Of a DNA stretch of 64,000 nt, positions 45,573-45,646 are shown one piece after another (within the stretch, counting starts at the first letter, position 1; each line of letters opens with the position of its first letter). The DNA is taken from IMG/VR virus record IMGVR_UViG_3300015360_000025. The stretch is one strand, 5' to 3'. This DNA is from a virus. The notes beneath the pieces were generated by a model. It was not told the DNA's origin, ran no database searches, and was given only the letters and a program-made list of their open reading frames with translations. The position numbers and the translations under genes are program-made.

Positions 45573-45646
45573 CCGCGGGTATCTCAAGGTTAGAGAGCCT
45601 CCGAAAGGGGGTTGATGTCTGGCACGGCACCTGACACCGCGGGCCA
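45573..45646 (+). ncRNA. Anticodon-less tRNA-like RNA with a GAAA tetraloop
   Basis: CCGCGG/CCGCGG acceptor plus GCCA, TCTC/GAGA D-stem with GG in the loop, anticodon stem CCTCC-GAAA-GGGGG, T-arm GTCTGG-CACGGCA-CCTGAC. Confidence 0.75.

What the first reader, a model, noticed from the sequence alone, without database searches (positions are those of the whole stretch)
45573..45646. Anticodon-less tRNA: the 7-nt anticodon loop is replaced by a GAAA GNRA tetraloop
Seen: a 5-bp anticodon stem CCTCC/GGGGG (45598-45611) closes GAAA, within an otherwise tRNA-sized cloverleaf ending G-CCA. GNRA is an extra-stable RNA cap and cannot present an anticodon, so this RNA should not decode. Inference: a clean 7-to-4 nt swap to a stable tetraloop looks selected rather than decayed. 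It may be a CCA-ended structural mimic acting on synthetases, EF-Tu, RelA, PTH or anticodon nucleases.
Basis: partly seen in the sequence, partly recalled or inferred. Interest (0 to 1): 0.85.

Follow-up and report, generated by a model that had tools for sequence, protein, structure and literature searches.

The report
Anticodon-less tRNA look-alike in phage array
A T4-like phage carries a tRNA-shaped gene whose codon-reading loop is sealed into a closed GAAA hairpin; relatives keep its tRNA body nearly unchanged but not that cap, so it is a selected, non-decoding tRNA mimic of unknown job, not a broken tRNA.

Summary
At 45573-45646 a 74-nt unit has a 6-bp acceptor helix plus a G.A mismatch, a D arm, a 5-bp stem capped by GAAA (45598-45611), a 6-bp T stem and encoded GCCA.

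It is unit 4 of six tRNA-shaped genes (45328-45811). They lie behind a promoter-like site and a PTH2-fold gene, in the tail module of an uncultured T4-like phage. None of the six has a canonical anticodon loop.

- **Body is selected.** In the closest relative that has this unit, synonymous sites in the flanking genes are near saturation (25/47 and 24/79 identical). Unit 4 is 65/71 identical.
- **Cloverleaf is supported.** Eleven of 22 pairs show compensatory changes across four sequences.
- **GAAA itself is not conserved.** Orthologues carry CUCAA, CUAAAGA or GUUUU caps.
- **Sealing recurs.** GNRA caps appear independently in other units and relatives, in distant PTH2-linked cassettes, and in at least 68 IMG/VR tRNA-like genes.

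My reading: a non-decoding tRNA mimic that works through its acceptor/CCA/elbow half. It is perhaps a decoy or ligand for proteins acting on tRNA 3' ends. That function is inferred, not shown.

I found no published description. Earlier reports of this scan noted the same class on other genomes.

The parts
44979..45308 (+). PTH2-like gene (109 aa) directly upstream of the array
   Evidence: Pfam PF01981 scores 19.3 bits, below the cut-off of 23. The AlphaFold2 model has pLDDT 93.7. Foldseek gives TM 0.73-0.79 (by model length) to archaeal and human Pth2 structures 1wn2, 3erj, 1q7s and 1xty. 396 homologues were found, many on phage contigs of about 200 kb.
45291..45319 (+). Promoter-like site TTCCCA-17-TATAAT with TG (extended -10), ending 8 nt before unit 1
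   Evidence: 10 of 12 matches, the only site in 1.1 kb. TGnTATAAT-like -10 elements sit at the same place in L027. Consensus match only; not shown to be active.
45328..45402 (+). Unit 1: tRNA-shaped, loop UAUUUAA (A33), ends UCCA
   Evidence: Minimum-energy cloverleaf. The loop is identical in L026 and L031 with covarying stems. Not called by ARAGORN or Rfam.
45408..45486 (+). Unit 2: tRNA-shaped, long interrupted anticodon arm capped by GCAA, ends ACCA
   Evidence: Rfam tRNA 44.3 bits, with 17 nt skipped in the anticodon arm. Fold. The L026 unit at the same place has CCGGU-GCAA-GCCGG.
45497..45567 (+). Unit 3: weak tRNA-like, loop CUGAACC, poor T stem, no CCA
   Evidence: Read; weak fold (z -0.64). 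The orthologues L026:612 and L027:1222 have a long arm capped by GCAA or GAAA, with compensatory stem changes ACC/GGU to GUC/GAC.
45573..45646 (+). Unit 4, the finding: acceptor 45573-79/45636-42, D arm 45582-96, sealed arm 45598-45611 (GAAA at 45603-06), T arm 45617-35, GCCA 45643-46
45652..45730 (+). Unit 5: tRNA-shaped, loop UGAAUAG, ends ACCA
   Evidence: Rfam 55.7 bits; ARAGORN calls 'Ile(aat)'. About 80% identical to phiCbK-type tRNA-Phe. Orthologue loops: L026 CUAAAAA; L159 sealed by GAAA, with 60/62 identity outside the arm.
45737..45811 (+). Unit 6: tRNA-shaped, 9-nt loop ACUAAUGAC, no CCA
   Evidence: Rfam 51 bits. The loop NGUAAUGAC/A is conserved with covarying stems in many PTH2-linked arrays.
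45837..45879 (+). Conserved hairpin followed by CTCTATTTAT, about 45 nt before the hub gene start
   Evidence: Alignment of seven relatives. No intrinsic terminator is called. Function not tested.
45920..46729 (+). Baseplate hub gene that bounds the array
   Evidence: PF12322 T4_baseplate 70 bits; PHROG 150.

Best explanation
Unit 4 is a functional, non-decoding tRNA-shaped RNA (a tRNA mimic).

Shown:
- It lies in a tightly packed array behind a promoter-like site and a PTH2-fold gene.
- Its acceptor stem, D arm, T arm and encoded CCA are held almost constant by selection.
- Its anticodon arm is only required to be a closed helix. GAAA is this phage's version of the cap.

Inferred:
- The array is transcribed as one precursor and cut into tRNA-sized pieces by the host tRNA-processing enzymes.
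- The piece has a 13-bp acceptor/T helix (7+6) ending in CCA.
- It works through that half of the molecule as a decoy or dedicated ligand for a protein that acts on tRNA 3' ends. Such a protein could be a host antiphage toxin of the toxSAS, MenT/AbiEii or GNAT kind, or the phage's own PTH2-like enzyme.
- Sealing the loop keeps the RNA off the decoding site and out of reach of anticodon-directed enzymes.

My confidence that it is selected and non-decoding is about 0.85. My confidence in the 3'-end decoy or ligand mechanism is about 0.35. The figure given is for the whole statement.
For: Selection on the body:
- Window against L026: four-fold synonymous sites are 25/47 (PTH2-like gene) and 24/79 (hub gene) identical, yet unit 4 is 65/71 identical. 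The changes are confined to the arm cap, two T-stem pairs and acceptor pair 7.
- Cloverleaf covariation on four sequences: 97.7% of cells paired, 11 of 22 pairs changed on both sides, 0 of 500 shuffles as high.
- CCA is kept in all four sequences.

Non-decoding:
- The 5-bp stem plus GAAA has pair probabilities of 0.996 or more.
- The orthologues have four different caps.

Sealing recurs:
- The L159 orthologue of unit 5 is 60/62 identical outside the arm, but the arm is GCAUC-GAAA-GAUGC.
- L026:612 and L027:1222 keep GNRA (GCAA against GAAA) over a compensated stem.
- In the generic parse, 6 of 8 distinct four-base caps are GNRA.
- Further GNRA-capped tRNA-shaped units lie just behind PTH2-like genes of only 41-60% identity, in L184, L188, L196, L205, L178, L179, L187 and L195.

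Link to the PTH2-like gene:
- In 54 distinct IMG/VR loci there are 100 tRNA-shaped units in the 1.7 kb downstream against 22 upstream. In 35 of the 54, a unit starts less than 200 nt after the stop.
- No other neighbour is conserved across these loci.
- The PTH2 fold is confirmed.

Established knowledge: several antiphage toxins read only the acceptor stem and CCA, and minihelices are enough as substrates (PMC11559606).
Against: - No expression, processing, aminoacylation or binding data exist.
- This copy is less perfect than its L026 orthologue: a G.A at acceptor pair 7 and a U.U in the T stem. Its cloverleaf lies 2.5 kcal/mol above the minimum-energy fold.
- Its T loop CACGGCA lacks the T-loop consensus, so recognition by RNase P, the CCA-adding enzyme or EF-Tu is not assured.
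- The closest relative, L159, lacks units 2 to 4 altogether, so unit 4 is dispensable for that phage.
- A decoy would have to compete with a very large tRNA pool.
- The column of the catalytic Lys of archaeal Pth2 is variable in the phage family, so the neighbour's activity is uncertain.
- Most GNRA-sealed tRNA-like genes in IMG/VR have no PTH2-like gene of this family nearby: only 2 of 114 loci do.
Confidence: 0.4

Rival explanations
1. Dedicated partner of the PTH2-like protein. The mimic would be the enzyme's substrate carrier, cofactor or regulator, as an RNA-protein pair, not a decoy for host factors.
For: The gene and the tRNA-shaped units travel together through unrelated genomic contexts, and no other neighbour is conserved. 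Pth enzymes recognise the acceptor/T helix, which is exactly the conserved half (established knowledge; PMC11559606 discussion). The phage family has its own invariant residues: H11, R16, D18, H30, S35, E76 and D78.
Against: Unit 4 is the fourth unit, 265 nt from the gene, and L159 does without it. Most sealed tRNA-likes in IMG/VR lack this gene. No binding test was possible.
Confidence: 0.2
2. Processing and stability scaffold. The unit is kept only so that the polycistronic precursor folds into tRNA-like modules. RNase P and 3' nucleases can then release the functional neighbours (units 1 and 6) and define the ends of the flanking mRNAs.
For: Units are 5-10 nt apart, as in tRNA operons. In many distant cassettes the first unit starts about 10 nt after the PTH2-like stop. 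Any closed arm would be tolerated, as observed.
Against: A mere spacer would not need 92-97% sequence identity in D arm, T loop and acceptor while synonymous sites are near saturation. It would not need a conserved CCA. L159 releases units 1, 5 and 6 without units 2-4.
Confidence: 0.15
3. Inhibitor or decoy of an anticodon nuclease. The body binds the nuclease while the sealed loop cannot be cut.
For: Phage tRNAs are known to counter anticodon nucleases (PARIS and retron examples cited in PMC11559606). Every unit of the array has an altered loop.
Against: Known anticodon nucleases read the loop sequence and its modifications, which are missing here (my own knowledge). The cap is not conserved between orthologues, whereas the acceptor end is.
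Confidence: 0.1
4. Decaying tRNA pseudogene, or an assembly or recent-deletion artefact.
For: ARAGORN and Rfam do not call it. This copy has two mismatches and a non-minimal cloverleaf. L027 has a 7-nt loop. L159 lacks the unit.
Against: 92% identity against near-saturated synonymous sites, compensatory changes, and perfect stable hairpins in every orthologue. The 612-nt spacing is the same in an independent assembly. GNRA sealing recurs independently.
Confidence: 0.05

Closest known systems
Canonical bacterial and phage tRNA (Rfam RF00005), including phage tRNA clusters with altered anticodon loops
   Same: Size, four-arm cloverleaf, U8-A9, GG in the D loop, encoded CCA, tandem arrangement in a phage tRNA-type array, and evident descent from tRNA genes. 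Unit 5 is about 80% identical to phiCbK tRNA-Phe.
   Different: No 7-nt loop, no U33 and no anticodon. The T loop is CACGGCA, not the T-loop consensus. The acceptor/T helix is 7+6 = 13 bp, not 7+5. There is no Rfam or ARAGORN call. The anticodon arm, the most conserved part of a decoding tRNA, is here the only freely varying part.
tmRNA tRNA-like domain (trans-translation; review PMC3985003)
   Same: A tRNA mimic without an anticodon that keeps acceptor stem, T arm and CCA and works through that half.
   Different: No G3.U70 alanine identity (G3-C70 here), no mRNA-like open frame, and no tmRNA call by ARAGORN. It has a full D arm and a closed anticodon-arm stump. No SmpB-like gene was seen.
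Bacterial Y RNA-like YrlA tRNA-like domain (Rfam RF02553; PMC4201824)
   Same: A non-decoding tRNA look-alike, also found in phages.
   Different: Only a 15-bit chance-level match, and that in the unit 5/6 region, against a gathering score of 69. Not permuted, no Ro-binding stem, and no Ro/TROVE gene in the window.
T4 stable RNAs species 1 and 2, and Bacillus cereus 'tRNA-Other' pseudo-tRNA (recalled from my own knowledge, not checked here)
   Same: Small CCA-ended or tRNA-like RNAs encoded among tRNA genes that do not decode. Their function is unknown (T4) or regulatory (tRNA-Other).
   Different: No sequence relation was tested. Those RNAs are not described as GNRA-sealed cloverleaves or as linked to a PTH2-like gene.
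tRNAs with non-7/5 acceptor/T geometry (8/4 and 9/3 tRNAs; PMC5389517, abstract seen)
   Same: Departure from the 7/5 acceptor/T arrangement in phage and bacterial tRNA-like genes.
   Different: Those keep 12 bp in total and a working anticodon. Unit 4 has 7+6 = 13 bp and no anticodon.

Membership tests
tRNA (Rfam RF00005) | Score at or above the family's gathering threshold (29 bits) | tested here: not met
   No match to 45573-45646 even at E up to 10, whereas units 2, 5 and 6 score 44-56 bits.
tRNA (Rfam RF00005) | Four-arm cloverleaf kept by base-pair covariation | tested here: met
   97.7% of cells paired; 11 of 22 pairs changed on both sides; 0 of 500 shuffles as high. The alignment was fitted to the model and has only four sequences.
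tRNA (Rfam RF00005) | 7-nt anticodon loop with U33 and a three-base anticodon | tested here: not met
   5-bp stem plus GAAA, pair probability 0.996 or more. ARAGORN makes no call.
tRNA (Rfam RF00005) | T loop of the T-Psi-C-R-A type and D-loop GG for the elbow | tested here: inconclusive
   The D loop AAGGUUA has GG. The T loop CACGGCA keeps only C56. Whether an elbow forms cannot be told from sequence.
tRNA (Rfam RF00005) | Aminoacylation and decoding on the ribosome | not testable with these tools
   Needs biochemistry.
tmRNA | G3.U70, tag reading frame, pseudoknots | tested here: not met
   G3-C70. ARAGORN finds no tmRNA in the window. The permuted-tmRNA match, elsewhere in the array, scores 16 bits against a gathering score of 47.
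PTH2-linked array of tRNA-shaped RNAs with sealed anticodon arms (working class, not published as far as I could find) | Lies in an array that starts directly behind a PTH2-like gene | tested here: met
   The gene ends at 45308 and the array runs 45328-45811. The same order is seen in L026, L027, L029, L031, L032, L043 and L159. Enrichment is 100 units downstream against 22 upstream in 54 loci.
PTH2-linked array of tRNA-shaped RNAs with sealed anticodon arms (working class, not published as far as I could find) | Anticodon arm closed by a short stable cap while the body is conserved | tested here: met
Peptidyl-tRNA hydrolase PTH2 (PF01981), for the neighbouring gene | Pfam gathering score | tested here: not met
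   19.3 bits against a cut-off of 23. Some homologues carry a precomputed PF01981 hit.
Peptidyl-tRNA hydrolase PTH2 (PF01981), for the neighbouring gene | PTH2 fold | tested here: met
   pLDDT 93.7. TM 0.73-0.79 by model length (0.72-0.74 by target) to 1wn2, 3erj, 1q7s and 1xty, E down to 5e-6.
Peptidyl-tRNA hydrolase PTH2 (PF01981), for the neighbouring gene | Catalytic residues of archaeal Pth2 (Lys of the GK motif; Asp and Thr of the D-A-G-x-T motif, recalled from my own knowledge) | tested here: inconclusive
   In the profile alignment the GK Lys falls on a variable column, while the Q-x-x-H-A-A motif and an acidic E76/D78 pair are invariant. The alignment is weak (E 0.01-0.04).

The most novel reading that the evidence does not exclude
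Sealed tRNA mimics such as unit 4, together with the PTH2-fold enzyme, form a new class of phage counter-defence. The RNAs would soak up host toxins that attack tRNA 3' ends. Those toxins act by pyrophosphorylation, nucleotide addition, or acetylation of charged tRNA. The enzyme would clear modified or acylated ends. The anticodon loop would be sealed again and again because a decoy that can still decode, or still be cut, is harmful.
Probability: 0.25. Interest if true: 0.9.

Novelty: new variant of a known kind. Interest (0 to 1): 0.68.

Why it matters
Phage tRNA genes are usually read as codon-usage helpers or as replacements for tRNAs cut by host nucleases. Odd ones, such as ARAGORN's 'tRNA-???' with a two-base anticodon, are dismissed as pseudogenes.

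Here the odd ones are the conserved ones. The tRNA body is held by selection while the decoding loop is repeatedly closed off, in several units, several phage lineages and many viral contigs. That points to a job for tRNA-shaped RNA outside decoding.

The fixed link to a PTH2-fold gene gives a concrete experimental handle. If the job is counter-defence at the tRNA 3' end, it would add an RNA-decoy arm to the known conflict over tRNAs. It would also explain a class of unannotated genes in large phages.

Tried and rejected
- **Hub-gene searches.** Searches from the baseplate hub gene in IMG/VR and in metagenome contigs found only relatives of 36-44% identity. None had a tRNA-like unit.
- **Known phages.** No near match exists in GenBank phages. 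The nearest cultured relative by tail sheath, Microcystis phage Mel-JY01, has no array after its tail tube gene.
- **Exact unit-4 core.** It is absent from IMG/VR.
- **Own genome and sequencing runs.** No whole genome is held for this window.
- **Identical-protein contig.** The DNA of the contig that encodes the identical PTH2-like protein could not be fetched. Only its gene map was available.
- **PDB by sequence.** No hit at E 0.01 or better. The fold search was needed.
- **Conserved neighbours.** Clustering flanking ORFs gave nothing conserved across loci beyond the PTH2-like gene and antisense frames over it. Hub, tail tube and tape-measure clusters are confined to the T4-like subset.
- **PTH2 link for the IMG/VR sealed tRNA-likes.** Only 2 of 114 loci have a PTH2-like gene of this family. 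The sealed-arm phenomenon is therefore wider than the cassette.
- **Literature.** Five searches found no description of anticodon-less or GNRA-sealed phage tRNA-like genes. The large survey of viral structured RNAs mentions only generic tRNA-like candidates.
- **Stop-codon recoding.** It does not explain the odd loops. The structural genes are open under the standard code.
- **Tetraloop receptor.** By eye I saw no canonical 11-nt GAAA receptor (CCUAAG with UAUGG) in 45300-45900.
- **Other readings rejected.** Selenocysteine-tRNA-like (13-bp helix, but no UCA and no long variable arm), tmRNA, Y RNA and mascRNA.

Full report
**What is there**

The window is part of an uncultured T4-like myophage.
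- Terminase, gp20 portal, prohead protease and gp23 capsid protein.
- Tail sheath, tail tube, tape measure and baseplate hub.
- No near match exists in GenBank phages.

Between the tail-tube region and the hub gene lie three things:
- a 109-aa gene (44979-45308);
- a promoter-like site, TTCCCA-17-TATAAT with TG (45291-45319);
- six closely packed tRNA-sized units (45328-45811).

The finding is unit 4 (45573-45646).
- CCUCC/GGGGG closes GAAA at 45598-45611.
- The acceptor has 6 bp plus a G.A mismatch.
- The D arm has 4 bp and a GG-containing loop.
- The T stem has 6 bp with one U.U and an atypical loop, CACGGCA.
- The unit ends in an encoded GCCA.

The sealed arm is very stable, with pair probabilities of 0.996 or more. 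The whole cloverleaf lies 2.5 kcal/mol above the minimum-energy fold of this copy, and the shuffle z-score is unimpressive. ARAGORN and the Rfam tRNA model do not detect the unit. From this sequence alone the cloverleaf would be only a suggestion.

**Relatives**

The upstream gene proved a good handle. It has 396 homologues, many on phage contigs of about 200 kb. Fetching their contigs, plus an IMG/VR scan with a family alignment, gave syntenic relatives.

Orthologues of unit 4:

| Locus | Neighbour protein identity | Anticodon arm | Fold |
|---|---|---|---|
| L026:694-764 | 81% | 4-bp stem, CUCAA | cloverleaf is the minimum-energy fold |
| L027:1304-1377 | 80% | 5-bp stem, ordinary-sized 7-nt loop CUAAAGA | cloverleaf is the minimum-energy fold |
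| L032:3537-3615 | 70% (possible orthologue) | 7 bp, GUUUU | found by covariance model |

All have a 7-bp acceptor and a 6-bp T stem. L159 is the closest relative (86%) and has only units 1, 5 and 6.

**Selected or decayed?**

Between the window and L026, four-fold synonymous third positions are 25/47 identical in the PTH2-like gene and 24/79 in the hub gene. That is close to saturation. Unit 4 is 65/71 identical. The differences lie in the cap of the anticodon arm, in two T-stem pairs and in acceptor pair 7.

On the four aligned sequences:
- 97.7% of cells form standard pairs, against 80% in shuffles and 37-54% for slid partners.
- 11 of 22 pairs change on both sides.
- The alignment is model-fitted and small, so these numbers are indicative.

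CCA is kept in all four. A decaying pseudogene is therefore very unlikely.

An assembly artefact is also unlikely. An independent assembly with the identical neighbour protein has the same 612-nt spacing.

**What exactly is selected**

It is not GAAA as such, because each orthologue has a different cap. What is constant is that the arm is a closed, well-paired hairpin on an otherwise conserved body.

The same pattern is seen elsewhere in the array:
- Window unit 5 and its L159 orthologue are 60/62 identical outside the arm. The arm is CCGGG-UGAAUAG-CCCGG in one and GCAUC-GAAA-GAUGC in the other.
- L026:612 and L027:1222 keep a GNRA cap (GCAA against GAAA) over a stem that changed by compensation.
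- Window unit 2 and L026:534 both carry GCAA.

In a generic parse of all arrays, 6 of 8 distinct four-base caps are GNRA, where 1 in 32 is expected. By contrast, the loops of unit 1 (UAUUUAA) and unit 6 (ACUAAUGAC) are conserved over covarying stems.

The array thus holds two kinds of unit: loop-constrained ones, and body-constrained ones with sealed or freely varying arms.

**How wide is it**

- In 54 distinct IMG/VR loci with a PTH2-like gene of this family, there are 100 tRNA-shaped units in the 1.7 kb downstream against 22 upstream.
- In 35 of those 54 loci, a unit starts within 200 nt of the stop.
- No other neighbour is conserved.
- Several first units in families of only 41-60% identity are GNRA-sealed, among them L184, L188, L196 and L205.

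Independently, I scanned IMG/VR for a canonical D arm, six bases, GNRA, then a T loop at the shortened spacing.
- 68 of them have at least 4 of 5 pairs flanking the tetraloop (27 have 5 of 5), where about 7% is expected.
- Many sit inside large phage tRNA arrays, where ARAGORN labels them 'tRNA-???' with a two-base anticodon.
- Only 2 of the 114 have this PTH2-like gene next to them. Sealing is therefore a broader phage phenomenon than the cassette.

**The neighbour**

Pfam PTH2 is below threshold (19.3 against 23 bits), and PDB sequence search finds nothing at E 0.01. A confident model (pLDDT 93.7) matches archaeal and human Pth2 structures at TM 0.73-0.79 by model length.

In a weak profile alignment, the Lys of the archaeal GK motif falls on a variable column. 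The Q-x-x-H-A-A motif and an acidic pair are invariant. The protein has the PTH2 fold, but its chemistry is open.

**Mechanism**

Shown:
- The unit cannot decode.
- Its acceptor, CCA, D and T parts are under purifying selection.
- Its arm needs only to be closed.
- It belongs to a cassette with a PTH2-fold gene.

Inferred:
- It is transcribed from the array's promoter-like site and released by tRNA-processing enzymes.
- It acts through the acceptor/elbow half.

That half is what Pth enzymes, EF-Tu and several antiphage toxins recognise. toxSAS enzymes pyrophosphorylate the CCA end and read only the first five acceptor pairs, and minihelices suffice as substrates. GNAT toxins and others also read the acceptor stem (PMC11559606).

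I therefore favour a decoy or dedicated-ligand role at the tRNA 3' end, at about 0.35. Sealing would keep the RNA out of decoding and away from anticodon-directed enzymes.

Rivals:
- A specific RNA partner of the PTH2-like protein (0.2).
- A processing scaffold (0.15). It is disfavoured by sequence-level conservation and by L159 doing without units 2-4.
- An anticodon-nuclease inhibitor (0.1). It is disfavoured because the loop is the unconserved part.
- Decay or artefact (0.05).

**Comparison with the known**

The unit descends from tRNA but fails defining tRNA features: no anticodon loop, no Rfam score and no T-loop consensus. It works most like the tRNA-like domain of tmRNA or like Y-RNA tRNA mimics, but meets none of their defining features.

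I found no paper describing such genes. Earlier reports of this scan describe the same class behind phage PTH2 genes in other genomes. I re-derived the link independently here.

**Verdict**

- It is a new variant of a known kind (tRNA mimics).
- It is of real interest as a class.
- The particular GAAA cap of this copy is one interchangeable solution, not a conserved feature.

Noticed in passing
window 45737-45811 (loop 45766-45774); L026:850 and 929, L029:3634, L032:3783, L034:3557, L043:2436, L159:2292, and many of L161-L205: The last unit of the arrays has a 9-nt loop NGUAAUGAC/A. This can also be read as an A.C pair closing GUAAUGA, with U33, AAU and G37. The loop is conserved over covarying stems in more than 15 PTH2-linked arrays. 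ARAGORN calls it Ile(aat) or a four-base anticodon. Unlike unit 4, its loop is clearly under selection.
   Followed up: partly
window 45328-45402; L026:454, L031:2913, L159:2134: The unit 1 loop UAUUUAA (A at position 33 of a Lys-UUU-like loop) is identical in the window, L026 and L031 over covarying stems. L159 has the canonical-looking UUUUUAA.
   Followed up: partly
L159:2212-2287 against window 45652-45730: The orthologue of unit 5 is 60/62 identical outside the anticodon arm, but the whole arm is replaced by GCAUC-GAAA-GAUGC. This is an independent sealing event in the closest relative, which also lacks units 2-4.
   Followed up: yes
window 45837-45879: A conserved hairpin (loop region GCUAAGAAAGC) is followed by CTCTATTTAT about 45 nt before the hub gene start. 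It is present in L026, L027, L031, L032, L159 and, more weakly, L043. It is possibly a terminator/late-promoter pair. The terminator scan does not call it.
   Followed up: partly
IMG/VR loci L045-L158, e.g. L060, L074, L084, L089, L109, L134, L144: GNRA-sealed tRNA-like genes are common in viral contigs, often inside arrays of 10-33 ordinary tRNAs. One recurrent family (CTGCT-GGAA-TGCAG) has G3.U70 and a T run right after the acceptor stem.
   Followed up: partly
L034:2406-2897 and L041:774-1199: Genes of homing-endonuclease type (NUMOD3 faint; Endonuclease_7) are inserted between the PTH2-like gene and the array in two relatives. In L032 the inserted gene is an AAA_28 gene.
   Followed up: no
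window 44979-45308: The phage PTH2-like family has its own invariant residues (H11, R16, D18, H30, S35, E76, D78, P80). The column of the archaeal catalytic Lys is variable. The enzyme may have a changed substrate or mechanism.
   Followed up: partly
I did not look at it.
   Followed up: no
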